Below are positions 2,030 through 37,949 of a DNA stretch of 64,000 nt, in pieces; the first letter of the stretch is position 1; each line of letters opens with the position of its first letter. A program made the translations under genes and the position numbers. The notes under the pieces were generated by a model, which did no database searches, was not told the DNA's origin, and saw only the letters and a program-made list of their open reading frames with translations. The stretch is from NCBI RefSeq assembly GCF_054482525.1, contig NZ_CM137006.1; one strand, given 5' to 3'.

Positions 2030-2716
2030 ATGACCCCAATAAAAATATTTATGACTATTGCTGATTTCAAACGGCCTAAATTGGAGCTCCCAAACGGGGC
2101 AAACAAACTACTACTGCACTCTTGCTGTGCTCCATGTTCCGGTGAAGTGATGGAGGCGCTTCAGGCCTCGGGAATCGACTACACCATCTTTTTCTACAAC
2201 CCGAACATTCATCCTCAGAAAGAGTATTTAATTCGTAAGGATGAAAATATTCGCTTTGCTGAACAACACGGCGTGCCGTTTATCGATGCTGATTACGACA
2301 CCGACAACTGGTTTGAACGTGCCAAAGGAATGGAATGGGAGCCTGAGAGGGGGATCCGTTGTACCATGTGTTTTGACATGCGTTTTGAGCGGACAGCGTT
2401 GTACGCTGCTGAAAATGGTTTCAGTGTGATCAGCAGTTCACTGGGCATTTCACGCTGGAAAAATATGCAGCAGGTTAACGAGTGTGGGCGGCGAGCTGTT
2501 GCGCATTATCCGGGTATGGTGTACTGGGATTATAACTGGCGCAAGCAGGGCGGCTCGTCCCGTATGATTGAAATCAGCAAGCGCGAAAAATTCTATCAGC
2601 AGGAATATTGTGGCTGTGTGTATTCTCTGCGCGATACCAATCTACACCGCAAATCTCAGGGACGCCCTCTTATCAAAATTGGCCAACTCCACTACGGAAA
2701 AGAAGAGAAGGAGTGA
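2030..2716 (+). CDS. queH: QueH-like (DUF208) epoxyqueuosine reductase
   Basis: 228 aa with [11 protein letters not shown] near the N-terminus, [20 protein letters not shown] and C-terminal QEYCGCVYS motifs, recalled as the QueH cysteine signature; own upstream TTGACA at 1904-1909. Confidence 0.6.
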
Positions 2717-5282: not shown

Positions 5283-5642
5283 ATGCGTATAGAGTTTGTT
5301 TTGCCTTATCCGCCGACGGTGAATACTTACTGGCGACGTCGTGGCAACACATATTTTGTATCAAAAGTCGGTGAGCGTTATCGCCGTGATGTGGCACTAA
5401 TTGTTCGCCAGCAGCGGTTGAAATTAAACCTGTCCGGAAGGCTGGCAATAAAAATTATTGCAGAGCCACCGGATAAGCGCCGCCGCGACCTGGACAATAT
5501 CCTGAAGGCACCACTGGATGCGCTGACGCATGCCGGACTTCTCATAGACGACGAGCAGTTTGATGAAATCAATATTGTGCGCGGACTGCCTGTTCCTGGT
5601 GGTCGGCTGGGGATAAAAATCACAGAACTGGAGTGCGCATGA
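5283..5642 (+). CDS. rusA: Holliday junction resolvase RusA
   Basis: 119 aa; LPYPPTVNTYW, RRRDLDNILKAPLDAL and GGRLGIKITELE align with RusA as recalled. Confidence 0.8.
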   Translation: MRIEFVLPYPPTVNTYWRRRGNTYFVSKVGERYRRDVALIVRQQRLKLNLSGRLAIKIIAEPPDKRRRDLDNILKAPLDALTHAGLLIDDEQFDEINIVRGLPVPGGRLGIKITELECA

Positions 5643-6328
5643 ATAACCAGTATTTACAGTTTGTGCGTGAGCAGCTCATTATCGCCACCGCTGATTTGAG
5701 TGGGGCAACAAAAGGTCAGCTTGAAGCCTGGCAAGAGAATGCCATGTTCGATACAGGGCGTTACAGGCGAAAAAAAATCCGGTACCGCGATGAAGTGACT
5801 GGAAAAATGATAACGCGGGATAATCCACCAATCCCGGGAAAGCAATCGCTGGCGAAGGGGACGTCAATTCCTCTGGTCAGTCCGGTTGAGTTTTCGACAT
5901 CATCGTGGCGGCGGGCTGTTTTGTCTCTTGAAGAACATCATAAAGCCTGGTTGTTGTGGTGTTACAGCGGGAGTATTTGTTGGGAATATCAGATCGCGAT
6001 AACACAGTGGGCGTGGAATGAATTTAATACTCAATCCGGTACCAGAAAAATTGCAGGGAAAACGCAGGAACGCCTGAAAAAATTAATCTGGCTGGCGGCG
6101 CAGGCAGTAAAAGCAGAACTTTTTGGTGGGGAAGGTTATGAATACCAGGAGCTGGCATTACTGGCGGGAGTGACAACTAAAAACTGGTCCAAAACATTTA
6201 CTCGTCACTGGGTTGCAATGAAACACATTTTTCACCGACTTGATAGTGAGGCTTTATTGTTTGTAATGAGAACACGTTCAAAACAAAAGGCGGCATTTTC
6301 AAAGCAAAGTATTGCAAAAGTAGATTGA
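5633..6328 (+). CDS. Putative late-gene antiterminator (Q-like)
   Basis: 231 aa directly downstream of rusA and upstream of a terminator, tRNA cluster and lysis genes; assignment by position only. Confidence 0.45.
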   Translation: MRMNNQYLQFVREQLIIATADLSGATKGQLEAWQENAMFDTGRYRRKKIRYRDEVTGKMITRDNPPIPGKQSLAKGTSIPLVSPVEFSTSSWRRAVLSLEEHHKAWLLWCYSGSICWEYQIAITQWAWNEFNTQSGTRKIAGKTQERLKKLIWLAAQAVKAELFGGEGYEYQELALLAGVTTKNWSKTFTRHWVAMKHIFHRLDSEALLFVMRTRSKQKAAFSKQSIAKVD

Positions 6329-6393
6329 AAGGCATATATTTCATGCAAATCTGATATTTTGCCGATTTTGTACGTGATGGCAAAAGCAAACAA

Positions 6394-6418
6394 AACCCGC
6401 CCACAAGCGGGTTTTTTG
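6394..6418 (+). terminator. Rho-independent terminator downstream of Q-like gene (tR'-like)
   Basis: aacccgcccacaagcgggtt hairpin followed by tttttt. Confidence 0.55.
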
Positions 6419-6484
6419 TGCCACTTATCTCGGATAGACATGGTGAATGCGCTAGTGGAGGAGATAAGGGTGATTTTTGAATGC

Positions 6485-6513
6485 TTGCAACATTGATTTC
6501 GTAACGTTATTAT
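6485..6513 (+). promoter_or_regulatory. Candidate sigma70 promoter for the tRNA cluster
   Basis: TTGCAA, 17-bp spacer, TATTAT, then GC-rich discriminator cctgcgcc just before tRNA 1. Confidence 0.4.
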
Positions 6514-6522
6514 CCTGCGCCC

Positions 6523-6598
6523 GGCCCTTTAGCTCAGTGGTGAGAGCGAGCGACTCATAATCGCCAGGTCGCTGGTTCAAATCCAGCAAGGGCCACCA
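6523..6598 (+). tRNA. tRNA with CAT anticodon (Ile2/Met-type)
   Basis: 76 nt cloverleaf ending CCA; anticodon loop CTCATAA; close to E. coli ileX as recalled. Confidence 0.7.
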
Positions 6599-6599
6599 G

Positions 6600-6676
6600 C
6601 CGCCACTAGCTCATCAGGAAAGAGCGTCAACCCTTTAAGTTGAGTGTGCGAGGTTCGAGTCCCCGGTGGCGGTCCA
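6600..6676 (+). tRNA. Atypical tRNA-like gene (anticodon loop CCTTTAA, UUU with C33); possibly non-canonical or pseudo-tRNA
   Basis: 77 nt; acceptor CCGCCAC/GTGGCGG plus T-CCA; D-arm GCTC/GAGC; T-loop TTCGAGT; one A-C mismatch in T-stem. Confidence 0.4.
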
Positions 6677-6678
6677 GT

Positions 6679-6754
<76 letters not shown>

Positions 6755-6757
6755 TAT

Positions 6758-6832
<75 letters not shown>

Positions 6833-7037: not shown

Positions 7038-7063
7038 CGCCCGCTTTTGCGGGTTTTTCTTTT
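7038..7063 (+). terminator. Rho-independent terminator between tRNA cluster and holin
   Basis: gcccgcttttgcggg hairpin followed by a T-run. Confidence 0.5.
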
Positions 7064-7123: not shown

Positions 7124-7339
7124 ATGAAATCCATGGACAAAATTTCAACGGGCATTGCCTACGGCACCTCCGCAGGCAGTGCTGGCTACTGGTTTTTACA
7201 GTGGCTTGATCAGGTCAGTCCGTCACAGTGGGCTGCGATTGGTGTACTGGGGAGTCTGGTTCTGGGCTTCCTGACTTATCTGACAAATCTGTACTTCAAA
7301 ATCAGAGAAGACAAGCGTAAGGCTGCACGGGGAGAGTAA
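7124..7339 (+). CDS. S: Class II holin (phage 21 S-like pinholin)
   Basis: 71 aa; [26 protein letters not shown]... with dual-start MKSM; matches S21 as recalled. Confidence 0.8.
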
Positions 7340-17574: not shown

Positions 17575-17633
17575 GGTCGTTAATGATTTTACCCACCCGC
17601 CGCTGGCGGGTTTTTTATTTTCAGGAGACGAGT

Positions 17634-19026: not shown

Positions 19027-19065
19027 GTCAACATAACCGCTTCGGCGGTTTTTTTCGTCCGGAGA

Positions 19066-23348: not shown

Positions 23349-24092
23349 ATGACAGAGACAGAATCAGCGATTCTGGCGCACGCCCGGCGATGTGCGCCAG
23401 CGGAGTCGTGCGGCTTCGTGGTGAGAACGCCGGAGGGGGAAAGATATTTTCCCTGCGTGAATATCTCCGGTGAGCCGGAGGAGTATTTCCGGATGTCGCC
23501 GGAGGACTGGCTGCAGGCAGAGATGCAGGGTGAGATTGTGGCGCTGGTCCACAGCCATCCCGGTGGTCTGTCCTGGCTGAGTGAAGCCGACCGGCGGCTG
23601 CAGGTGCAGAGTGATTTACCGTGGTGGCTGGTCTGCCGCGGGGAGATTCATAAATTCCGCTGTGTGCCGTATCTCACCGGGCGGCGCTTTGAGCACGGGG
23701 TGACGGACTGTTACACGCTGTTCCGGGACGCTTACCATCTGGCGGGGATTGAGATGCCGGATTTTCACCGCGAGGATGACTGGTGGCGTAACGGCCAGAA
23801 TCTCTATCTGGATAATCTGGAGGCCACAGGGCTGTATCAGGTGCCGTTGTCATCGGCCCAGCCGGGCGATGTGCTGCTGTGCTGTTTTGGTTCATCGGTG
23901 CCGAATCATGCCGCCATTTACTGCGGCGACGGCGAGCTGTTGCACCATATTCCTGAACAACTGAGCAAACGAGAGAGGTATACCGACAAATGGCAGCGAC
24001 GCACACACTCCCTCTGGCGTCACCAGGCATGGCACGCATCTGCCTTTACGGGGATTTGCAACGATTTGGCCGCCGCATCGACCTTCGTGTGA
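23349..24092 (+). CDS. K: Tail assembly protein K (MPN/NlpC-P60 domains)
   Basis: 247 aa, near-identical to lambda K as recalled. Confidence 0.9.
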   Translation: MTETESAILAHARRCAPAESCGFVVRTPEGERYFPCVNISGEPEEYFRMSPEDWLQAEMQGEIVALVHSHPGGLSWLSEADRRLQVQSDLPWWLVCRGEIHKFRCVPYLTGRRFEHGVTDCYTLFRDAYHLAGIEMPDFHREDDWWRNGQNLYLDNLEATGLYQVPLSSAQPGDVLLCCFGSSVPNHAAIYCGDGELLHHIPEQLSKRERYTDKWQRRTHSLWRHQAWHASAFTGICNDLAAASTFV

Positions 24093-24637
24093 AAACGGGG
24101 GCTGAAGCCATCCGGGCGCTGTCCACACAGGTCCCGGCGTTTCGTCAGAAACTGAATGACGGCTGGTATCAGGTGCGCATTGCCGGGCGTGATGCAGGTG
24201 AAACCGAATTATCTGCCCGTCTTAATGAGCCGCTGGCAAATGGTGCAGTGATCCACATCGTGCCGCGTCTGGCGGGAGCCAAAAGTGGCGGTGTTTTTCA
24301 GGCGGTGCTGGGTGCGGCGCTGATTGCGGTGGCGTGGTGGAACCCCGCAGGCTGGCTGGGTGCCGCGGCTTTATCGGGCATGTATGCGGCTGGGGCCAGT
24401 ATGATCCTGGGTGGTGTGGCGCAGATGCTGGCACCGAAAGCCCGGACGCCCACGGCAGCCAGTACAGATAACGGCAAACAGAACACGTATTTCTCGTCAC
24501 TGGATAACATGGTTGCCCAGGGCAATGTTCTGCCCGTTCTGTACGGTGAAATGCGTGTGGGGTCGCGAGTGGTATCTCAGGAGATCAGCACGGCAGATGA
24601 AGGTGATGGTGGTCAGGTTGTGGTGATTGGTCGCTGA
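23990..24637 (+). CDS. I: Tail assembly protein I
   Basis: 215 aa; MAATHTLPLASPGMARICLYGDLQRFGRRIDLRVKTGAEAIRAL as in lambda I as recalled. Confidence 0.8.
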   Translation: MAATHTLPLASPGMARICLYGDLQRFGRRIDLRVKTGAEAIRALSTQVPAFRQKLNDGWYQVRIAGRDAGETELSARLNEPLANGAVIHIVPRLAGAKSGGVFQAVLGAALIAVAWWNPAGWLGAAALSGMYAAGASMILGGVAQMLAPKARTPTAASTDNGKQNTYFSSLDNMVAQGNVLPVLYGEMRVGSRVVSQEISTADEGDGGQVVVIGR

Positions 24638-24697
24638 TGCAAAATGTTTTATGTGAAACCGCCTGCGGGCGGTTTTGTCGTTTATGGAGCGTGAAGA

Positions 24698-27600
24698 ATG
24701 GGTAAAGGCAGCAGTAAGGGGCATACCCCGCGCGAAGCGAAGGACAACCTGAAGTCCACGCAGTTGCTGAGTGTGATCGATGCCATCAGCGAAGGGCCGA
24801 TTGACGGTCCGGTGGATGGATTAAAAAGCGTGCTGCTGAACAGTACGCCAGTGCTGGACACTGAGGGGAATACCAACATCTCCGGCGTCACGGTGGTGTT
24901 CCGGGCAGGTGAGCAGGAGCAGACTCCGCCGGAGGGGTTTGAATCCTCCGGCTCCGAGACGGTGCTCGGTACAGAAGTGAAATATGACACGCCGATCACC
25001 CGGACCATCACGTCGGCAAACATTGACCGTCTGCGTTTTACTTTCGGCGTGCAGACACTGGTGGAAACCACCTCAAAGGGGGACAGGAATCCGTCGGAAG
25101 TCCGCCTGCTGGTTCAGATACAGCGTAACGGTGGCTGGGTGACGGAAAAAGACATCACCATTAAGGGCAAAACCACCTCGCAGTATCTGGCCTCGGTGGT
25201 GGTGGGTAACCTGCCGCCGCGCCCGTTTAATATCCGGATGCGCAGGATGACGCCGGACAGCACCACAGACCAGCTGCAGAACAAAACGCTCTGGTCGTCA
25301 TACACCGAAATCATCGATGTGAAACAGTGCTACCCGAACACGGCACTGGTCGGCGTGCAGGTGGACTCGGAACAGTTCGGCAGTCAGCAGGTGAGCCGTA
25401 ATTATCATCTTCGCGGGCGCATTCTGCAGGTGCCGTCGAACTATAACCCGCAGACGCGGCAATACAGCGGTATCTGGGACGGAACGTTTAAGCCAGCATA
25501 CAGCAACAACATGGCCTGGTGTCTGTGGGATATGCTGACCCATCCGCGCTACGGCATGGGGAAGCGTCTCGGTGCGGCGGATGTGGACAAATGGGCGCTG
25601 TATGTCATCGGCCAGAATTGCGACCAGTCGGTGCCGGATGGCTTTGGTGGCACGGAGCCGCGCATCACCTGTAATGCCTGGCTGACCACACAGCGTAAGG
25701 CGTGGGATGTTCTCAGTGATTTCTGCTCGGCGATGCGCTGTATGCCGGTATGGAACGGGCAGACGCTGACGTTCGTGCAGGACCGACCATCAGATAAGGT
25801 GTGGACCTATAACCGCAGTAATGTGGTGATGCCGGATGATGGCGCGCCGTTCCGCTACAGCTTCAGCGCCCTGAAGGACCGCCATAATGCCGTTGAGGTG
25901 AACTGGATTGACCCGAACAACGGCTGGGAGACGGCGACAGAGCTTGTTGAAGATACGCAGGCCATTGCCCGTTACGGTCGTAACGTCACGAAGATGGATG
26001 CCTTTGGCTGTACCAGCCGGGGGCAGGCACACCGCGCCGGGCTGTGGCTGATTAAAACGGAACTGCTGGAAACGCAGACCGTGGACTTCAGCGTGGGCGC
26101 AGAAGGGCTTCGCCATGTACCGGGCGATGTCATTGAAATCTGTGATGATGACTATGCCGGTATCAGCACCGGTGGTCGTGTGCTGGCGGTGAACAGCCAG
26201 ACCCGGACGCTGACGCTCGACCGTGAAATCACGCTGCCATCCTCCGGTACCACGCTGATAAGCCTGGTTGACGGAAGTGGCAATCCGGTCAGCGTGGAGG
26301 TTCAGTCCGTCACCGACGGCGTGAAGGTAAAAGTGAGCCGTGTTCCTGACGGTGTTGCTGAATACAGCGTATGGGGGCTGAAGCTGCCGACGCTGCGCCA
26401 GCGCCTGTTCCGCTGTGTGAGTATCCGGGAGAACGATGACGGTACGTATGCCATCACCGCCGTGCAGCATGTACCGGAAAAAGAAGCCATCGTGGATAAC
26501 GGGGCGCACTTTGACGGCGACCAGAGCGGCACGGTGAATGGTGTCACGCCGCCAGCGGTGCAGCACCTGACCGCCGAAGTCACCGCAGACAGCGGGGAAT
26601 ATCAGGTGCTGGCGCGATGGGACACGCCGAAGGTGGTGAAGGGCGTGAGCTTCCTGCTTCGCCTTACCGTGGCAGCGGACGACGGCAGTGAGCGGCTGGT
26701 CAGCATGGCCCGGACGACGGAAACCACATACCGCTTCAGGCAACTGGCGCTGGGGCGTTACACGCTGACGGTCCGGGCGGTAAATGCGTGGGGGCAGCAG
26801 GGCGATCCGGCATCGGTATCGTTCCGGATTGCGGCACCGGCAGCGCCTGTCACTATTGAACTGATACCAGGGTATTTTCAGATAACAGCGGTCCCGAAAC
26901 TGGCTGTATATGACCCGACGGTGCAGTTTGAGTTCTGGTTCTCGGAAACGCGGATTACCGATATCAGGCAGGTTGAAACCACAGCCCGCTACCTTGGCAC
27001 GGGGCTGTACTGGATAGCCGCCAGTATCAATATCAAACCGGGCCATGATTATTACTTTTATATCCGCAGTGTGAACACCGTTGGCAAATCGGCATTCGTG
27101 GAGTCCGTCGGTCGGGCGAGCGATGATGCGGAAGGTTACCTGGATTTTTTCAAAGGCAAGATAACCGAATCCCATCTCGGCAAGGAGCTGCTGGAAAAAG
27201 TCGATCTGACGGAGGATAACGCCAGCAGACTGGATGAGTTTTCGAAAGAGTGGAAGGATGCCAACGATAAATGGAATGCCATGTGGGCTGTCAAAATTGA
27301 GCAGACCAAAGACGGCAAACATTATGTCGCGGGTATTGGCCTCAGTATGGAGGACACGGAGGAAGGCAAACTGAGCCAGTTTCTGGTTGCCGCTAACCGT
27401 ATCGCGTTTATTGACCCGGCAAACGGGAATGAAACGCCGATGTTTGTGGCGCAGGGCAATCAGATATTCATGAACGACGTGTTCCTGAAACGCCTGACGG
27501 CCCCCACCATTACCAGTGGTGGAAATCCACCGGCATTTTCCCTGACACCGGATGGGCGGCTGACGGCGAAAAATGCCGATATCAGCGGTAACGTGAATGC

Positions 27601-28093
27601 GAACTCCGGGACGCTCAACAACGTCACGATTAACGAGAACTGTCGGGTTCTGGGAAAACTGTCCGCGAACCAGATTGAAGGCGATCTCGTTAAAACAGTG
27701 GGCAAAGCTTTCCCCCGGGACTCCCGTGCACCGGAACGGTGGCCATCAGGGACCATTACCGTCAGGGTTTATGACGATCAGCCGTTTGACCGGCAGATTG
27801 TTATTCCGGCGGTGGCATTCAGCGGCGCTAAACATGAGAGAGAGCATACTGATATTTACTCCTCATGCCGTCTGATAGTGCGGAAAAACGGTGCTGAAAT
27901 TTATAACCGTACCGCGCTGGATAATACGCTGATTTACAGTGGCGTTATTGATATGCCTGCCGGTCACGGTCACATGACGCTGGAGTTTTCGGTGTCAGCA
28001 TGGCTGGTAAATGACTGGTATCCCACTGCGAGCATCAGCGATTTGCTGGTTGTGGTGATGAAGAAAGCCACTGCAGGCATCACTATTAGCTGA
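24698..28093 (+). CDS. J: Host specificity / central tail fibre protein J
   Basis: 1131 aa; lambda J-like size and position. Confidence 0.9.
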
Positions 28094-28111
28094 ATTTTAT
28101 AACCCAGATAC

Positions 28112-28138
28112 GGGCGCCAGAAATGGCGCCTTTTTTAT
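28112..28138 (+). terminator. Rho-independent terminator after J
   Basis: ggcgccagaaatggcgcc hairpin followed by a T-run. Confidence 0.55.
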
Positions 28139-28160
28139 TGCAGAAAAGCGAGAGGTAATT

Positions 28161-28760
28161 ATGCGTAAATTATGTGCTGTTATTCTGTCCGCAGTAGTCT
28201 GGCTGGTTGCCGCTGGTACGCCAGCGAGCGCAGCAGAGCATCAGTCCACACTAAGCGCCGGGTATCTTCAGACCCATACTGATATGCCAGGCAGCGATGA
28301 CCTGAAGGGCATTAATGTGAAATACCGTTATGAATTTACGGACACGCTGGGGCTGGTGACGTCATTCAGTTATGCCAATGCCAAAGATGAGCAAAAAACG
28401 CATTACAGCGATACCCGCTGGCATGAAGATTCAGTGCGTAACCGCTGGTTCAGCATGATGGCGGGGCCATCTGTACGCGTGAATGAATGGTTCAGTGCTT
28501 ATGCGATGGCAGGTGTGGCTTACAGCCGTGTTTCGACTTTTTCCGGGGATTATCTCCGCGTAACTGACAGCAAGGGGAAAACGAACGATGTGCTGACCGG
28601 AAGTGATGATGATCGCCACAGCAACACGTCTCTGGCGTGGGGAACTGGCGTGCAGTTTAACCCGACCGAATCCGTGGCCGTTGATATTGCTTATGAAGGT
28701 TCCGGCAGTGGCGACTGGCGCACTGACGGTTTCATCGTGGGTGTCGGTTATAAATTCTGA
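28161..28760 (+). CDS. lom: Lom-like outer membrane protein (Ail/Lom family)
   Basis: 199 aa; signal peptide, beta-barrel pattern, C-terminal GVGYKF. Confidence 0.8.
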   Translation: MRKLCAVILSAVVWLVAAGTPASAAEHQSTLSAGYLQTHTDMPGSDDLKGINVKYRYEFTDTLGLVTSFSYANAKDEQKTHYSDTRWHEDSVRNRWFSMMAGPSVRVNEWFSAYAMAGVAYSRVSTFSGDYLRVTDSKGKTNDVLTGSDDDRHSNTSLAWGTGVQFNPTESVAVDIAYEGSGSGDWRTDGFIVGVGYKF

Positions 28761-28786
28761 TTAGCCAGGTAACACAGTGTTATGAC

Positions 28787-28815
28787 AGCCCGCCGGTTCA
28801 GGCGGGCTTTTTTGT
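28787..28815 (+). terminator. Rho-independent terminator after lom
   Basis: agcccgccggttcaggcgggct hairpin followed by a T-run. Confidence 0.55.
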
Positions 28816-28818
28816 GGA

Positions 28819-31224
28819 GTGGATATGGCAGCAGTAAAAATCTCAGGTGTGCTGAAAGATGGTGCGGGAAAACCAATACAGAACTGCACTATTCAACTGA
28901 AGGCAAAGCGTAACAGCACCACGGTACTGGTGAACACGGTGGCCTCTGAAAATCCGGATGAAGCCGGGCGTTACAGCATGGATGTTGAGTATGGCCAGTA
29001 CAGCGTCATCCTGCTGGTTGAAGGTTTTCCGCCTTCACATGCCGGGACCATTACCGTCTATGAAGGCTCCAGACCAGGTACGCTGAATGATTTTCTCGGT
29101 GCCATGACGGAAGATGATGTCATGCCGGAGGCATTGCGTCGTTTTGAGGAAATGGTGGAAGAAGCGGCACGCAACGCTGAAGCCGCCTCTCAGAGCGCAG
29201 CGGCGGCAAAGAAATCAGAAACTGCAGCGGCATCATCGAAGAACGCGGCGAAAACCTCAGAAACGAATGCAGCTAACAGCGCACAGGCGGCAGCGGCCTC
29301 ACAGACTGCATCAGCAAACTCCGCGACAGCAGCCAAAAAATCAGAAACCAACGCGAAAAATAGCGAGACAGCCGCAAAGACGAGCGAAACCAACGCAAAG
29401 TCCAGCCAGACGGCAGCGAAAACCAGCGAAACGAATGCCAAAGCCAGTGAAACTGCGGCAAAAAACAGCCAGGTTGCAGCAGCCCAAAGCGAGAGCGCGG
29501 CAGCCGGTTCTGCGACTTCAGCAGCTGGATCAGCAACTGCTGCGGCTAACAGCCAGAAAGCTGCGAAGACGAGTGAAACTAACGCAAAGTCCAGCCAGAC
29601 GGCAGCGAAGACCAGCGAAACGAATGCCAAAGCCAGCGAAACTGCGGCGAAAAACAGTCAGGATGCAGCAGCCCAAAGCGAGAGTGCTGCAGCTGGTTCT
29701 GCAAGCGCGGCGGCTGCTTCTGCCACTGCATCAGCCAACAGTCAAAAAGCAGCAAAAACCAGTGAAACCAATGCAAAGACAAGCGAGACTGCAGCGGCGA
29801 ACTCGGCGAAAGCATCGGCAGCAAGCCAGACAGCAGCTAAAGCAAGTGAAGACGCAGCCAGAGAGTATGCAAGTCAGGCAGCAGAGCCGTATAAATATGT
29901 CTTACAGCCACTGCCTGATGTGTGGATACCGTTTAACGATTCACTGGATATGATTACGGGCTTTTCGCCGTCATATAAAAAAATTGTTATTGGTGATGAT
30001 GAAATAACGATGCCTGGCGACAAGGTTGTTAAGTTTAAACGCGCATCAACTGCCACATATATCAATAAATCAGGCGTATTTAGTGTTGCTAAAATTGATG
30101 AGCCACGATTTGAAAAAGAAGGTTTATTGATTGAAGGACAGCGCACTAACTATTTTGTTAAATCCAATACTCCCGCTGAATGGACGAGTACCAGCAATAT
30201 CGATAAAACTAATAATGGTGTTGATGAATTTGGTTTTTCATATGCCAAAATGCGAACAAAAGATAATATGACAGGACAATCATCTGCACTTAGTCTGCAT
30301 ACATGCAGTGCATCCCGGGGGATTGATGTTAGTGGCGATAATAAGTATTGCACTGTTTCATGCAGGGTTAAAGCTCCTGATGGTCTTCGTTGTCGTTTGC
30401 GTTTTGAAAAATACGATGGGTCGGTTTATACATTTTTAGGAGATGCTTATTTAACTTTCGGAACTCTGATAATAGAAAAAACTGGCGGAGCAGCCAATAG
30501 AATAGCAGCTACTGCAACTAAAGATCCGGTTACAGGGTGGATTTTCTATGAGGCAACTATAGAAGCTGTTGAAGGTGAAACCTTAATTGGCGCAATGATT
30601 CAGTATGCGCCGAAAAAAGGTGGTATAACTGAAGCGGGAGATTATATTTACCTTGCAACACCACAATTTGAAAACGGCGGATGTGCTTCATCTTTTGTTA
30701 TTACGACAACTGCACCCGCAACCCGCTCCAGTGATATGGTGACGATCCCAACTGAAAATAATATCTATAATAGACCGCTTACGTGTCTTGTCGAGGTTAA
30801 TAGAAATTGGGGCGATATTCCTCCTAATGTAGCACCGCGTATTTTTGATTTTTCTGGTGTGCCACCTATTGAGTCAATTACATACGCTTTTAACACAACT
30901 GAGAAATATTACGGTCAGCTTTATATGCAGACTTATAAAGCGTCGACAAGTACTTACGTTTCTAGTGTGTTTGCTGGTCGAACTGATGTTCGAAAATTCA
31001 TTGGTGGTTTTAATATTTATTCTGATGGTACTAAACGAGTAGTTTCTAACGGTGAGGCTACTAAAACTATGAAAACGGAGTGGACGGGCGTAAAAACACG
31101 GACCTTTATTCGAATTGGAGGTCAAGCCACATCGGGAACTCGTCATCTATTCGGCCATTTGAGAAATCTTCGTCTCTGGCATAAAGAATTAACTGATGCG
31201 CAAATGGGGGAGAGTATTAAATGA
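28819..31224 (+). CDS. stf: Side tail fibre protein (Stf-like) with Ala/Ser/Thr repeat stalk
   Basis: 801 aa; N-terminus like lambda Stf as recalled; central KTSETNAKxSxTAA repeats. Confidence 0.8.
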   Translation: MDMAAVKISGVLKDGAGKPIQNCTIQLKAKRNSTTVLVNTVASENPDEAGRYSMDVEYGQYSVILLVEGFPPSHAGTITVYEGSRPGTLNDFLGAMTEDDVMPEALRRFEEMVEEAARNAEAASQSAAAAKKSETAAASSKNAAKTSETNAANSAQAAAASQTASANSATAAKKSETNAKNSETAAKTSETNAKSSQTAAKTSETNAKASETAAKNSQVAAAQSESAAAGSATSAAGSATAAANSQKAAKTSETNAKSSQTAAKTSETNAKASETAAKNSQDAAAQSESAAAGSASAAAASATASANSQKAAKTSETNAKTSETAAANSAKASAASQTAAKASEDAAREYASQAAEPYKYVLQPLPDVWIPFNDSLDMITGFSPSYKKIVIGDDEITMPGDKVVKFKRASTATYINKSGVFSVAKIDEPRFEKEGLLIEGQRTNYFVKSNTPAEWTSTSNIDKTNNGVDEFGFSYAKMRTKDNMTGQSSALSLHTCSASRGIDVSGDNKYCTVSCRVKAPDGLRCRLRFEKYDGSVYTFLGDAYLTFGTLIIEKTGGAANRIAATATKDPVTGWIFYEATIEAVEGETLIGAMIQYAPKKGGITEAGDYIYLATPQFENGGCASSFVITTTAPATRSSDMVTIPTENNIYNRPLTCLVEVNRNWGDIPPNVAPRIFDFSGVPPIESITYAFNTTEKYYGQLYMQTYKASTSTYVSSVFAGRTDVRKFIGGFNIYSDGTKRVVSNGEATKTMKTEWTGVKTRTFIRIGGQATSGTRHLFGHLRNLRLWHKELTDAQMGESIK
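29180..29860 (+). repeat. In-frame tandem repeats within stf, including a direct duplication of about 120-190 bp
   Basis: gcaaagtccagccagacggcagcgaa... occurs at about 29395 and again at about 29581; many shorter related units. Confidence 0.7.
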
Positions 31225-31502
31225 AAGATTTAACACTCAAATTTGCAGACAGGGCCGACTTTTCGGCCTTTATGGAGAGCATTGGCTATTATGATGACGA
31301 GTCGATGCAGGATGATATTCTTATTGACGTGATAGGTAATGTGTACAAAGAAACCGGAGAACTTACTGAAGATGGCGAGCCGGTATGTGTTAAGGAGGAC
31401 GGATATTTTGTAAACGTGCGCATCATTAATGATTCGCAAATATCGTCATTATTCGATGAATACGCGGTTGCTGTTGAGCATCAACTTCGTGGCTGGATGT
31501 GA
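31221..31502 (+). CDS. Hypothetical acidic protein between the two fibre genes
   Basis: 93-aa ORF whose start overlaps the stf stop. Confidence 0.35.
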   Translation: MKDLTLKFADRADFSAFMESIGYYDDESMQDDILIDVIGNVYKETGELTEDGEPVCVKEDGYFVNVRIINDSQISSLFDEYAVAVEHQLRGWM

Positions 31503-31511
31503 GGAAGGAAA

Positions 31512-32552
31512 ATGGCTACATCGACAGTAATTCCTGATGATATCAAAACGCTAAAATCCGACGTTAGCAAATTAAAAAACGATCAAGGGAGCTACGCAAC
31601 AAAATCATATGTAGACAATAAAACAACATGGAATAGTTATTGCAATGTAATCTATGATCAAAAGACATTGCCGACCACTGGAACTATATTTAGCGGTAAG
31701 ATTCACTTGTCAAATAAGACAGGAGAAACCGAAAACGCTTATAGTGAGATGTACACCAGAAAAAATATTGACGGTACAAAAGATACAATGACAAGGATTG
31801 TCACACACAATGGAACAAAAGGTATCTTTTGGGATTTTAGCGATCTTTACGGCGGAACATTAATTTTTCCAGGCAGTGATGGTTACCTTAAGATGGGGAA
31901 CTGTCTCATGTCGTATGGTGTGCGGGGAAGTAACGCGCTTATTAAGTTTGACTGCACAGACACATTACAAATCAAATATGCCAATCATGGGTCAACCATG
32001 ACATTAAACACACAGGGGACCGCTCATTCTGGCGCTACTACTAGTTTGTGGGGTAACTCTACCCGTCCGGTTGTATATGAAGTTGGTGCTGATGGTGGCG
32101 CGTATATGTTCTATGCGCAGAAAAATACCGATAACACCTATATGTTAAGCGTTAATGGTGCATGTCATGCCACCGCATTTAACCAGCATTCCGACCGGGA
32201 TCTGAAAGACAACATTCAGGTGATCGATAATGCAACCGACCGCATCCGTAAAATGAACGGCTATACATACACGCTTAAAGAAAACGGTATGCCCTATGCA
32301 GGTGTCATTGCACAGGAAGCTCTGGAAGCAATCCCAGAAGTTGTAGGTTCCGCAATGAAATATCAGGACGGTGCAAGCGGATCGGAAGGTGAAGAAGGTG
32401 AACGTTATTACACAGTAGATTATTCTGGTGTTACTGGCTTGCTTGTTCAGGTAGCCAGAGAGTCAGACGACAGAATAACAGTACTGGAAGAAGAAAACGC
32501 AGAATTAAGGCAAAGATTATCTGCAATTGAGGCGACGCTTGCGTCTAAATAA
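31512..32552 (+). CDS. Second tail fibre/spike-like protein with C-terminal intramolecular chaperone (peptidase S74-like) domain
   Basis: 346 aa; C-terminal DRDLKDNIQVID...RIRKMNGYTYTLK...GVIAQEA plus terminal coiled coil. Confidence 0.6.
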   Translation: MATSTVIPDDIKTLKSDVSKLKNDQGSYATKSYVDNKTTWNSYCNVIYDQKTLPTTGTIFSGKIHLSNKTGETENAYSEMYTRKNIDGTKDTMTRIVTHNGTKGIFWDFSDLYGGTLIFPGSDGYLKMGNCLMSYGVRGSNALIKFDCTDTLQIKYANHGSTMTLNTQGTAHSGATTSLWGNSTRPVVYEVGADGGAYMFYAQKNTDNTYMLSVNGACHATAFNQHSDRDLKDNIQVIDNATDRIRKMNGYTYTLKENGMPYAGVIAQEALEAIPEVVGSAMKYQDGASGSEGEEGERYYTVDYSGVTGLLVQVARESDDRITVLEEENAELRQRLSAIEATLASK

Positions 32553-32587
32553 TATTAAGGGCTATGCGCCCCGTTTTATTGGGTAGG

Positions 32588-32881
32588 ATGAAAATGGATA
32601 TAACACCTTTTCTTCATGCGCTTTGTGCTGTGGCTGCGCAGGTACTGGTTGGTTTTTTTACCGGAAACTGGGCTTACGGGGCGATAGCCGGTTGTACATT
32701 CTTCATTGCGCGGGAACACACCCAGGCAGAATATCGCTGGATTGAAATGTTCGGGCATGGCAAGCGGATTAACATGCCGTGGTGGGGCGGTTTTGATCCA
32801 CGTGCATGGGATGTGGCAAGCCTGATGGATTTTGCTGTGCCGGTGGTGGCGTGTCTGCTGATCTGGATGTTGATCCGTTAA
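32588..32881 (+). CDS. Hypothetical membrane protein at prophage right end
   Basis: ORF 32564-32881; two hydrophobic segments; followed by a hairpin at about 32900-32935. Confidence 0.3.
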   Translation: MKMDITPFLHALCAVAAQVLVGFFTGNWAYGAIAGCTFFIAREHTQAEYRWIEMFGHGKRINMPWWGGFDPRAWDVASLMDFAVPVVACLLIWMLIR

Positions 32882-33228
32882 ATATAAAAAGTAAAAAGCC
32901 GCAGTAACTTGTCATGATAGGATACTGCGGCTGGCTGGTTAACTTTCGATAGTGCGAGTATTGAATGATTTCCAGCCGTTACCGATTTTATATAACTGCA
33001 GTGGAATTATTCAACACACAGGCAAAACGGAATAAGCTGAGAAAAAAGCGTGCTTACCCAATCTGGGGTAAATCACGTCTGAATGACACCTGAAAACAGG
33101 TGGTGGCCTCAAGAAGGCTTGGAATATTCTTCTTTAATGTTATGTAATTTATTGATTTTTCGTGTACGATTTTAAGACATTTATTCCAAGAAAAATTTTT
33201 AACTCTTTGATTTTTCGACTCTGTATCA

Positions 33229-33960: not shown

Positions 33961-34611
33961 TCAATGAGACATCATTTCCTCGACCACTTCTTCGCTACTC
34001 AACTGATATGGATAATACGTTGGCCAGTTTTCCATTTCATTTAATAAAGATTGCTGTGAATCATTACCCATAAAAATGTGAAAATGAGATGATTTTCGTG
34101 GTGCAATTATATGATCGCTAAATTGTATATATTTAGGGGCTTTGCTTTTAGGATCTTTACATTCGAATAAGTAACGAACGCCTTTCTTGCCTGATTTATA
34201 GGTGAGTATTTTGTATCCATCGTAATCATATTTACAGGATGTTGTTTCATTATTTCTATGGAATTCAACAATGCCGTCCTCAATGCCAATCATCTCGATA
34301 TCTGTCACATAACCTTTGCGATAATAATCTTTAATTTCAGCAAATGTTTTAGTTTTATCTGCATCCGCTTTCTTCTGAAAGACGGGGTCAAGTTTGCCAC
34401 TTTGCAGTAAAGGATAAACGGATTGCCAGACTCCATCCCAGTCACTGAGCGTTCGGTTTTGTACATTGGCATCATCAAAAACACCATTAGCAGCTTTTTG
34501 TTCGACCTCTGTTAAGGGTTTGCCGTGTGAGTGATGACCATGCGAAAAGGCAGGAGCGCTAACAATAAAGACACCTAAAGCAACAGCCAGTTTATGAAGA
34601 CGAATCGCCAA
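33961..34611 (-). CDS. zinT: Metal-binding protein ZinT
   Basis: 216 aa; signal peptide and His-rich HGHHSHG motif; synteny with msrQP. Confidence 0.85.
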
Positions 34612-34819
34612 AACAGTTTCCTCCAGAGTTAATGTATATGATGTGTAATGTTATATTGTAACACATAAAAAAATGCAACAACTCTTAGGAGACAAGAGAA
34701 TAGTTCTCTCAGGTGTGCTTATCTATCTTATTGAAATAAAATAAATTATGTCGATGATTTGAGGTTGATGACAAACGAAACATAACCTAATGCGATCTGT
34801 GTATGCCGGATAAGGCGCT

Positions 34820-35574
<755 letters not shown>

Positions 35575-35678
35575 ATCAGCATACTTGTCCTTAGCCTTCT
35601 GCAGTGACAGCTGGTAGTACAGCGTGCTTCTGGCCAGCCCTGCAGCCTTTAACAGGTCAGACTGGCAGTGTCCGCACC

Positions 35679-36209
35679 TCAGGCTCCGGATGACTTTCGT
35701 TTTTTCTCCAGCTCCTGGCGCTTTTTTTCCAGGAGATGCTCCTGCATGGCTTTCAGATATGCATTTTCTGCGCGAAGATAACGCAGCTCATTCTTCATCT
35801 CTTCCGGCGTCATGTTTGCCTCGTTTTCATGGGTATCATCAGAACGGGTCATGCTTTTCTCCTTCCTGCGCCTGATAAAGGCCTCATTACCAGATTTGCG
35901 GTAGCCTTTTATCCAGTTTTTAACCGTGTTGTGGCTGGGAATGTTAAACCGGGCAGCTACCCGGGGTAGAGACTCAGAATGCCCGAGAGCATAAAGAACC
36001 ACGCAAAGTTTATCTTCAGGAGAATAGCTACGCTTGTGTCTGCAATCCAGTGCCCGAGGACCGTGAAGAAGAAAAAGATTAATCCAGTGTGAGAGGCTGG
36101 TGTGAGAAAGTTGAAAGAGTTTTGCCGTAGAAATGATGCCTGCATGACCAGCCAGGTAATGATTTACAGCGGCAAGTTTTACTTCAAATGAATGTTTCAT
36201 AAACTGCAC
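35679..36209 (-). CDS. IS3-family transposase OrfA (HTH)
   Basis: 176 aa with HTH N-terminus and leucine-zipper-like C-terminus. Confidence 0.8.
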   Translation of the reverse strand: MQFMKHSFEVKLAAVNHYLAGHAGIISTAKLFQLSHTSLSHWINLFLLHGPRALDCRHKRSYSPEDKLCVVLYALGHSESLPRVAARFNIPSHNTVKNWIKGYRKSGNEAFIRRRKEKSMTRSDDTHENEANMTPEEMKNELRYLRAENAYLKAMQEHLLEKKRQELEKKRKSSGA

Positions 36210-36302
36210 CTTCAGATGTCAGATTATGTCCAACATTTGGGGTGCAGTTCAGCTCGCGCCGCATCCGGCAGGGATAACGCGTACTTTGTCGGCAATATGA
36301 AG

Positions 36303-36938
36303 TTATAGAGATAATTTGTTGTGAACCTGCTTGCGTAACCGGTTGAAAAGGGAAAGCAACTTCTTATACCGTAAGGCTAAAAGCAGTACCGCCAGCCCAG
36401 CGTAGATGAGTGGCTGCGGTGAAATAATCTTCACTGACCACAGATAATGTATTGGGGCCAGGATCACGACAAGATAGACGAAGTTATGCAACTGTTGCCA
36501 GTGTTTGCCGAGTTTTCGCTGCATCGCCTGGGTTGAAGTGAACGCTAAAGCAAGCAAAATAACCCAGCTGATAATTCCTAACGTTAAATAAGGCCGGGTA
36601 ATTAACTCCTTGCCTAATAACGCCAGATTATTCACGCCCAGCTCCAGTAATGCGTAACTGGTTAAATGCAGTGTCGCCCAGGCAAAGCACCATAAGCCTA
36701 ACAGGCGGCGAGTGCGTATCAATAACGGCTGTTTTGCGTAGCGTGCCAGAGGTGTGATTAACAAGGCCGCCAGCAAAAATTTCAGTGCAGTGCGACCAGT
36801 AAAATGCTGAATATCTTTCACCGGATCGGCACCCAATCCACCGTGATTAATCGCCCAGACCAGCCAGAGAAACGGCAACAATCCGGCAAGATGCAGGCAA
36901 ACTTTCAGCCATGTCACCTGTTTTGCTGTCAGACGCAT
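36303..36938 (-). CDS. msrQ: Methionine sulfoxide reductase haem-binding subunit MsrQ
   Basis: 211-aa polytopic membrane protein immediately downstream of msrP. Confidence 0.85.

Positions 36939-37949
<1,011 letters not shown>

What the first reader, a model, noticed from the sequence alone, without database searches (positions are those of the whole stretch)
28112..28815. lom is bracketed by its own terminators
Seen: strong terminators immediately after J and after lom isolate the Ail/Lom-family outer membrane protein gene as a separate unit, consistent with lysogen-expressed conversion cargo.
Basis: partly seen in the sequence, partly recalled or inferred. Interest (0 to 1): 0.2.

Follow-up and report, generated by a model that had tools for sequence, protein, structure and literature searches.

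The report
Terminator hairpins flanking prophage lom gene
Both hairpin terminators around the lom outer-membrane gene of this E. coli lambda-like prophage are real, but only the downstream one belongs to lom, no lom promoter is detectable, and the arrangement is the ordinary, already sequenced one found in thousands of E. coli prophages.

Summary
Canonical intrinsic-terminator hairpins sit at 28112-28139 (T1, after J) and 28787-28813 (T2, after lom). Under strict criteria the late operon has 5 such sites against 0.3 expected.

- Lom-less relatives, including phage 21 and the prophages of 1224 of 5426 complete E. coli genomes, carry the same T1 directly in front of the stf ribosome-binding site. 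T1 is therefore the resident J-stf terminator, not lom's own.
- The lom indel is 28140-28812. It holds a 21-nt leader with the RBS, lom and T2.
- It has no room for a promoter, and no sigma-70-like site stands out within 560 nt upstream.
- lom shows no GC anomaly.
- Similar hairpins bracket core late genes: the tail tube and chaperone genes here, and gene E in lambda. Bracketing is therefore not a cargo signature.
- Published RNA-seq of the LF82 prophage Perceval, which has the same T1/T2 layout and an 84% identical Lom, shows lom at background in lysogens.
- Lambda lom is reported as strongly expressed in lytic growth.

Most likely lom here is a passenger of the Q-antiterminated late operon and is insulated in the prophage state. 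The architecture is already known, so interest is low.

The parts
24698..28093 (+). J (tail tip / host specificity protein) gene, 1131 aa
   Evidence: ORF; Pfam GpJ domains including the C-terminal receptor-binding domain
28112..28139 (+). T1: intrinsic-terminator hairpin (28112-28131) with its T-run and ATT. It is the resident J-stf terminator and is shared with lom-less phages.
   Evidence: fold of the 52-nt context -15.7 kcal/mol, z = -3.3; covariation; identical sequence in lom-less phage 21, annotated there as a terminator
28140..28812 (+). lom cassette as defined by the indel against lom-less phages (673 bp): 21-nt leader with RBS, lom, 3'UTR and T2
   Evidence: Junction comparison of the window with phages 21, 1W and 2G7a. 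The boundaries are ambiguous by 1-2 T.
28150..28155 (+). lom ribosome-binding site GAGAGG
   Evidence: Read from the sequence; conserved in the lambda and L094 leaders
28161..28760 (+). lom, Ail/Lom family outer-membrane beta-barrel protein, 199 aa
   Evidence: Pfam PF06316 at E = 4.7e-126 over the full length; 45% aa identity to lambda Lom
28770..28782 (+). Perfect 13-nt palindrome TAACACAGTGTTA (small hairpin) in the lom 3'UTR, function unknown
   Evidence: identical in lambda
28787..28813 (+). T2: intrinsic-terminator hairpin (28787-28808) with its T-run. It is the terminator that travels with lom.
   Evidence: -17.6 kcal/mol; homologous in lambda and behind all three lom alleles examined; absent from lom-less junctions
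28816..31224 (+). stf (side tail fibre) RBS GGAG at 28816-28819 and CDS from ATG 28825
   Evidence: Pfam phage_tail_N; the same start as lambda orf-401
17595..17616 (+). Comparable late-operon internal terminator hairpin between the tail completion gene and the tail tube gene (ATG 17634)
19035..19055 (+). Comparable late-operon internal terminator hairpin between the tail chaperone G/T genes and the tape measure gene
5633..6328 (+). Q antiterminator gene of this prophage. It sits upstream of the same-strand late operon that contains J, lom and stf.
   Evidence: Pfam PF06323 at E = 8.6e-92

Best explanation
lom here is a 673-bp passenger cassette (short leader with RBS, lom, and its own terminator T2). 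It lies directly behind a terminator (T1) that exists after J whether or not lom is present.

The cassette has no promoter of its own. In lytic development, RNA polymerase modified by the prophage's Q protein at the late promoter reads through T1 and T2, as it does through the other internal hairpins of this operon. lom is therefore made together with the tail genes.

In the repressed prophage, unmodified polymerase stops at T1 and T2. This keeps stray transcription out of lom and out of stf, so lom is silent or nearly so.

Shown: the anatomy, the cassette boundaries, the conservation of the hairpins and the lack of a recognisable promoter. Inferred: Q read-through (from established lambda biology) and silence in the lysogen (from the transcriptome of a relative).
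For: - Lom-less junction: J stop, T1, TTTTTTATT, then directly TGTGGAGTGAATATG(stf) in phages 21, 1W and 2G7a. It is present in 1224 of 5426 E. coli genomes.
- Three diverged lom alleles (window type, L094 type, lambda type) each follow a different T1 stem that ends in TTTT(TT)ATT. All share a homologous roughly 21-nt leader and the same T2.
- No promoter: the best PWM score is 5.9 against a window median of 7.7, and the tool scan gives no + strand hit upstream of lom.
- A Q gene is present, and the late genes from the lysis genes to stf are all on the + strand.
- Other strong internal terminators lie at late-gene boundaries here and around lambda gene E.
- Perceval prophage, with the same T1/T2: lom 10.7 against a prophage median of 7.1 and a moron cut-off of 35.6, and log2(5+fpkm) of 2.3-3.6 in all ten samples.
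- Lambda lom is transcribed and strongly expressed in lytic growth.
- lom has no GC anomaly.
Against: - Lambda lom is repeatedly described as expressed from the prophage, which implies some promoter or leakage in lambda.
- Lambda has a better -10-like TATTAT over its T1 T-run.
- Weak, activator-dependent or alternative-sigma promoters would escape my PWM.
- The Perceval data cover only three growth conditions, and Perceval's Lom is 84% identical, not the same.
- No experiment here shows termination or read-through.
Confidence: 0.6

Rival explanations
1. lom is an autonomous, lysogen-expressed conversion unit (a classical moron). An unrecognised promoter overlaps or lies just upstream of T1, T1 shields the unit from upstream transcription, and T2 ends its transcript.
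For: - Literature describes lambda lom as prophage-expressed and as a moron.
- lom is a presence/absence gene with its own terminator.
- Other phage Lom homologues (VT2-Sakai, Gifsy-2, SJ46) have AT-rich upstream spacers of 90-120 nt plus a downstream terminator, the typical moron layout.
Against: - Only 21 nt separate the end of the T1 T-run motif from the ATG (29 nt from the hairpin stem), and no sigma-70-like site scores above background.
- A promoter upstream of T1 would be terminated by T1.
- T1 exists without lom.
- There is no GC anomaly.
- Perceval lom is at background in lysogens, whereas bor in the same prophage is induced.
- One lambda array study did not detect lom and noted that little is known about the lom promoter.
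Confidence: 0.25
2. The hairpins work mainly at the RNA level in lytic growth. They would act as 3' barriers that stabilise processed segments of the long late mRNA and set relative amounts of gene products, or they would give rise to Hfq-binding RNAs derived from 3' ends. Termination would be secondary.
For: - The same hairpin, T-run and RBS layout flanks highly expressed structural genes: the tail tube gene here and capsid gene E in lambda.
- Lambda's tL2a terminator yields the Hfq-dependent sRNA PreS inside an antiterminated operon.
- The lom 3'UTR is 90-100% identical between lambda and this prophage, although most of lom itself is only about 35-60% identical at the DNA level.
Against: - The conserved block continues into stf at 80-95% identity. 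It looks like a shared mosaic segment rather than a conservation peak on the UTR alone.
- No Rfam family matches.
- The RIL-seq study reported lambda sRNAs elsewhere, not at lom.
- This model does not exclude the termination role.
Confidence: 0.15

Closest known systems
Bacteriophage lambda J-lom-stf region (NC_001416, 18904-19649)
   Same: - Same gene order.
- A hairpin with a T-run after J (CGTCCGGGAACGGGCG-TTTTATT).
- A homologous T2 after lom (AGCCCGCCGGAACCGGTGGGCT-TTTTTT).
- A homologous short leader with GAGAGG, and the same stf start.
   Different: - Lom is only 45% identical in amino acids.
- The T1 stem has an unrelated sequence and goes with a different J C-terminus.
- Lambda has a TATTAT -10-like hexamer over its T-run, which this prophage lacks.
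Phage 21 (OL657228.1) J-stf intergenic terminator, a lom-less arrangement
   Same: T1 is identical base for base, and it is annotated as a terminator in that record. It is followed by the same stf RBS and start.
   Different: Phage 21 has no lom and no T2. The 673-bp cassette is absent.
Morons as defined for HK97 and HK022 (for example HK97 gene 15)
   Same: An extra gene sits inside the late operon, is present in some relatives only, and has its own downstream terminator.
   Different: The definition includes an own promoter and usually a deviant GC content. Neither is found here.
Lom homologues of Stx phages of the VT2-Sakai/933W type, Gifsy-2 and SJ46
   Same: They belong to the Ail/Lom family, and each has a downstream intrinsic terminator.
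   Different: - Only 30-33% amino-acid identity, in different genomic positions.
- AT-rich upstream spacers of 90-120 nt with room for a promoter.
- No upstream terminator, and non-homologous downstream terminators.

Membership tests
Intrinsic (Rho-independent) terminator | GC-rich stem-loop immediately followed by a U/T-run on the transcribed strand | tested here: met
   T1 has 8 bp (6 G-C) followed by TTTTTATT. T2 has 8 bp (7 G-C) followed by TTTTTG. Hairpin energies are -15.1 and -17.6 kcal/mol.
Intrinsic (Rho-independent) terminator | Structure maintained in relatives (compensatory changes or replacement by another hairpin) | tested here: met
   For T1, 13 variants pair in 100% of cells, 2 pairs change on both sides, and G-U intermediates occur. 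Three unrelated T1 stems occupy the same position. T2 is mostly invariant, so it carries little covariation information.
Intrinsic (Rho-independent) terminator | Stops unmodified RNA polymerase in vivo or in vitro | not testable with these tools
   This needs Term-seq or in vitro transcription.
Moron (autonomous lysogen-expressed cargo unit) | Gene present in some and absent from otherwise collinear relatives | tested here: met
   Lom-less junctions occur in phages 21, 1W and 2G7a and in 1224 of 5426 E. coli genomes. The lom+ region matches in 4905 of 5426 genomes.
Moron (autonomous lysogen-expressed cargo unit) | Own promoter | tested here: not met
   The cassette has only 21 nt upstream of the ATG. 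No sigma-70-like site scores above background within 560 nt. Non-canonical promoters are not excluded.
Moron (autonomous lysogen-expressed cargo unit) | Own terminator | tested here: met
   T2 lies inside the indel and accompanies all three lom alleles.
Moron (autonomous lysogen-expressed cargo unit) | Base composition different from its neighbours | tested here: not met
   lom has GC 0.49-0.54, the J 3' end 0.48-0.56 and the stf 5' end 0.51-0.56.
Moron (autonomous lysogen-expressed cargo unit) | Transcribed from the repressed prophage | not testable with these tools
   The literature is mixed. Lambda lom is reported as expressed in lysogens, but it was not detected in one array study. Perceval lom is at background.
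Ail/Lom outer-membrane protein family (PF06316) | Full-length match to the family profile above the curated cut-off | tested here: met
   418.6 bits, E = 4.7e-126, residues 1-199 matching profile positions 1-199 of 199.
Lambda-type Q-antiterminated late operon | Q antiterminator gene upstream of a long same-strand block of lysis, head and tail genes | tested here: met
   Q (PF06323, E = 8.6e-92) lies at 5633-6328. Lysozyme, Rz, terminase, tail genes, J, lom and stf are all on the + strand.
Lambda-type Q-antiterminated late operon | Late promoter with a Q-utilisation site and a tR'-like terminator, and read-through of downstream terminators | not tested
   I only noted promoter-like sites at 6312-6773 and a terminator-like hairpin at 7039-7054. 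I did no functional or comparative test.

The most novel reading that the evidence does not exclude
In the J-lom-stf context, lom would not be a lysogenic-conversion gene at all. It would be a late (lytic) gene, and its product would act in the outer membrane of the cell that is producing phage. Separately or in addition, T1, T2 and the highly conserved lom 3'UTR would yield stable RNAs derived from 3' ends with a regulatory role. A lytic role for Lom has already been suggested from its co-transfer with holin genes, so even this reading is only partly new.
Probability: 0.15. Interest if true: 0.4.

Novelty: already known. Interest (0 to 1): 0.12.

Why it matters
It matters little beyond careful annotation. 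The region is 97.9% identical to a sequenced phage, and its architecture is that of lambda itself.

The useful point is a caution. A gene flanked by terminators inside an antiterminated late operon is not thereby an independent, lysogen-expressed unit.

- The upstream terminator here pre-exists without lom.
- Core structural genes are bracketed in the same way.
- The cassette carries no promoter.

This sharpens a small open question, namely where lom transcription in lysogens would come from, if it occurs at all. It also suggests that annotating lom as lysogenic-conversion cargo in E. coli prophages rests on thin evidence.

Tried and rejected
- **Rfam scan of 24000-33000.** It gave only chance-level hits: Trp_leader over T2 at E = 0.97 and a eukaryotic lncRNA.
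- **The 24B_1 microRNA-size RNA downstream of lom in phage Phi24B.** It belongs to the unrelated lom context of short-tailed Stx phages, and its authors say it is absent from lambda. It is not relevant here.
- **Lambda sRNAs PreS and LPR2.** They map elsewhere, at tL2a and near the 6S RNA. They serve only as a precedent.
- **Sigma-70 promoter search.** Neither the tool scan nor my own PWM found anything above background. The best site near lom (score 4.8) has a -10 that overlaps the ATG, so it could not give full-length Lom.
- **SigmaE-like and PhoP-box-like motifs.** I looked by eye in the J-lom spacer and saw no convincing match. This was an inspection, not a test.
- **Apparent mosaic junction right after T2.** Five IMG/VR loci looked like evidence for a module boundary, but the junction is an IS200C insertion.
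- **GC-content anomaly as a sign of foreign origin.** There is none.
- **Papers I could not read.** Liu et al. 2013 (ribosome profiling of lambda) and Casjens & Hendrix 2015 were not held. What they say about lom is cited only second-hand.

Full report
**Context**

The window holds a lambda-like prophage of E. coli next to chromosomal genes.
- A 1.7-kb stretch around the finding is 100% identical to strains XH992 and 405, and 97.9% identical to phage 2G7b.
- On the + strand lie a Q antiterminator gene (5633-6328, PF06323), lysis genes, terminase, head and tail genes, J (24698-28093), lom (28161-28760) and the side tail fibre gene stf (ATG at 28825).
- Host genes follow from about 33.9 kb: zinT, an IS3-family element and msrPQ-like genes.
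- lom is a full-length member of the Ail/Lom family (PF06316, E = 4.7e-126).

- T1 is GGGCGCCA-GAAA-TGGCGCCT at 28112-28131, followed by TTTTTATT. It starts 18 nt after the J stop codon.
- T2 is AGCCCGCC-GGTTCA-GGCGGGCT at 28787-28808, followed by TTTTTG. It starts 26 nt after the lom stop codon.
- Both fold as predicted. The T1 context gives -15.7 kcal/mol with z = -3.3, and the T2 hairpin gives -17.6 kcal/mol.
- Neither has a T-run on the opposite strand, so both act only on rightward transcripts (read from the reverse-strand sequences).
- With the tool's permissive rule, terminator-like sites are not enriched.
- With a strict rule, the + strand from 8 to 33 kb has 5 sites against 0.3 +/- 0.5 in shuffles. 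The four strong ones all sit in short spacers directly before a ribosome-binding site.
- Across 13 distinct T1 variants from IMG/VR loci and phages, every cell of the 8-bp stem pairs. Two pairs show changes on both sides (G-C to A-U, C-G to U-A), and G-U intermediates are present.
- In lambda and in an Stx1 phage, different stems occupy the same place and end in the same TTTT(TT)ATT.
- T2 is nearly invariant, so it offers little covariation evidence.

**What belongs to lom**

I searched with the J 3' end joined to the stf 5' end and found lom-less relatives.
- In phages 21, 1W and Lambda_2G7a the spacer reads: J stop, ATTTTATAACCCAGATAC, T1, TTTTTTATT, and then immediately TGTGGAGTGAATATG, which is the stf RBS and start.
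- The phage 21 record annotates this hairpin as a terminator.
- In the window the same left and right sequences are separated by 28140-28812. This 673-bp segment holds a 21-nt leader (GCAGAAAAGCGAGAGGTAATT), lom, a 26-nt 3'UTR and T2.
- T1 is therefore a resident feature of the J-stf junction, and only T2 travels with lom.
- The polymorphism is common. The lom-less junction is contiguous in 1224 of 5426 complete E. coli genomes, and the lom+ region matches in 4905. Strain LF82 carries one prophage of each kind.
- Three lom alleles share the same left boundary, a homologous leader and the same T2. These are the window type, an Stx1_14040 type, and the lambda type at 45% amino-acid identity.
- Against lambda, homology is low through the J C-terminus, T1 and most of lom. 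It rises to 90-100% over the last roughly 90 nt of lom, the 3'UTR and T2, and stays at 80-95% into the stf N-terminal domain. That pattern fits a shared mosaic block.

**No promoter is visible**

- The tool scan finds no + strand promoter-like site upstream of lom.
- My PWM scan of the 560 nt upstream gives a best score of 5.9, below the window-wide median best score per 540 nt of 7.7. Lambda gives 7.5, about the median.
- Any promoter upstream of T1 would run into T1.
- lom also lacks the compositional signature of a recent import.
- Lom homologues elsewhere (VT2-Sakai, Gifsy-2, SJ46) look different. Each has an AT-rich upstream spacer of 90-120 nt, no upstream terminator, and its own non-homologous downstream terminator.

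**Bracketing by hairpins is not specific to cargo genes**

- In this prophage, equally canonical hairpins lie at 17595-17611 and 19035-19050. The first is between the tail completion gene and the tail tube gene. The second is between the tail chaperone genes and the tape measure gene.
- In lambda the same strict scan finds hairpins on both sides of the major capsid gene E (6098-6117 and 7164-7179), in addition to those after J and lom.

**Expression data from the literature**

- Lambda lom is widely cited as one of the few prophage-expressed genes and as a moron.
- One array study did not detect it in lysogens and states that little is known about the lom promoter.
- Lambda lom is transcribed in lytic growth, because a Cas13a guide against it restricts the phage. 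It is described as strongly expressed in the lytic cycle, citing ribosome profiling.
- For this architecture specifically, prophage Perceval of E. coli LF82 has the same T1 (an A-U variant), leader and T2, and a Lom 84% identical.
- In the published RNA-seq table, Perceval lom scores 10.7 against a prophage median of 7.1 and a moron cut-off of 35.6.
- It stays at log2(5+fpkm) of 2.3-3.6 in all ten samples (LB, DMEM, macrophages). In the same prophage, cI, sitABCD and bor are clearly expressed.

**Interpretation**

The best-supported reading is that lom is a passenger of the Q-antiterminated late operon.
- It is transcribed by terminator-resistant polymerase during lytic development. That step is inferred from established lambda Q biology and the presence of Q here.
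- It is insulated by T1 and T2 in the repressed prophage.

However, it lacks its key element, a promoter, and it assigns T1 to the wrong owner.

A third, compatible reading is that the hairpins serve mainly as RNA 3' barriers or as sources of small RNAs. The precedent is PreS, made from lambda's tL2a terminator.

**Novelty**

None of this is new in kind. The sequence, the gene order and the terminators are all present in lambda and in annotated phage records. The exact cassette boundaries and the absence of a promoter are a modest clarification.

Noticed in passing
window 17595-17616 and 19035-19055: Two further canonical terminator hairpins lie inside the late operon, each followed directly by an RBS. 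They bracket the tail tube and tail chaperone genes. In lambda, similar hairpins flank capsid gene E (L093 6098-6117 and 7164-7179).
   Followed up: partly
window 28770-28782: A perfect 13-nt palindrome, TAACACAGTGTTA, sits in the lom 3'UTR between the stop codon and T2. It is identical in lambda, and two loci carry a T-to-A change. Its function is unknown: it could be a small RNA hairpin or a protein-binding site.
   Followed up: no
L004 2516-3600 (also E. coli JJ1887, O25b:H4, and strain W46 = H34): In five of the IMG/VR loci fetched here and in 153 complete genomes, an IS200C element is inserted immediately after the T2 T-run (TTTTTTGTG|CACAG...), between lom and stf.
   Followed up: partly
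L086 1118-1327 (phage D2, OM475427.1): Only the last roughly 120 nt of lom, plus T2, remain, joined to a J-derived reading frame. This looks like a deletion that removed the J end, T1 and most of lom. The record is partial and contains an N nearby.
   Followed up: no
L005 about 3818: One IMG/VR contig has a lom-less T1-stf junction about 1.2 kb downstream of its lom and T2. That suggests a rearranged or duplicated J-stf region.
   Followed up: no
PMC9928086 supplementary table S1 (prophage Perceval, LF82_180-183): In macrophage samples, stf and the two genes after it rise to log2 values of 5-7 while lom stays at zero. Transcription of that block must therefore start downstream of lom or T2, or on the other strand.
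   Followed up: no
window 2030-2716: The early region of the prophage encodes a full-length QueH-like epoxyqueuosine reductase (PF02677, E = 1.1e-65).
   Followed up: no
window 33964-37943: The prophage's right end abuts zinT, an IS3-family element (34855-36209) and msrPQ-like genes. I did not locate the attachment site.
   Followed up: no
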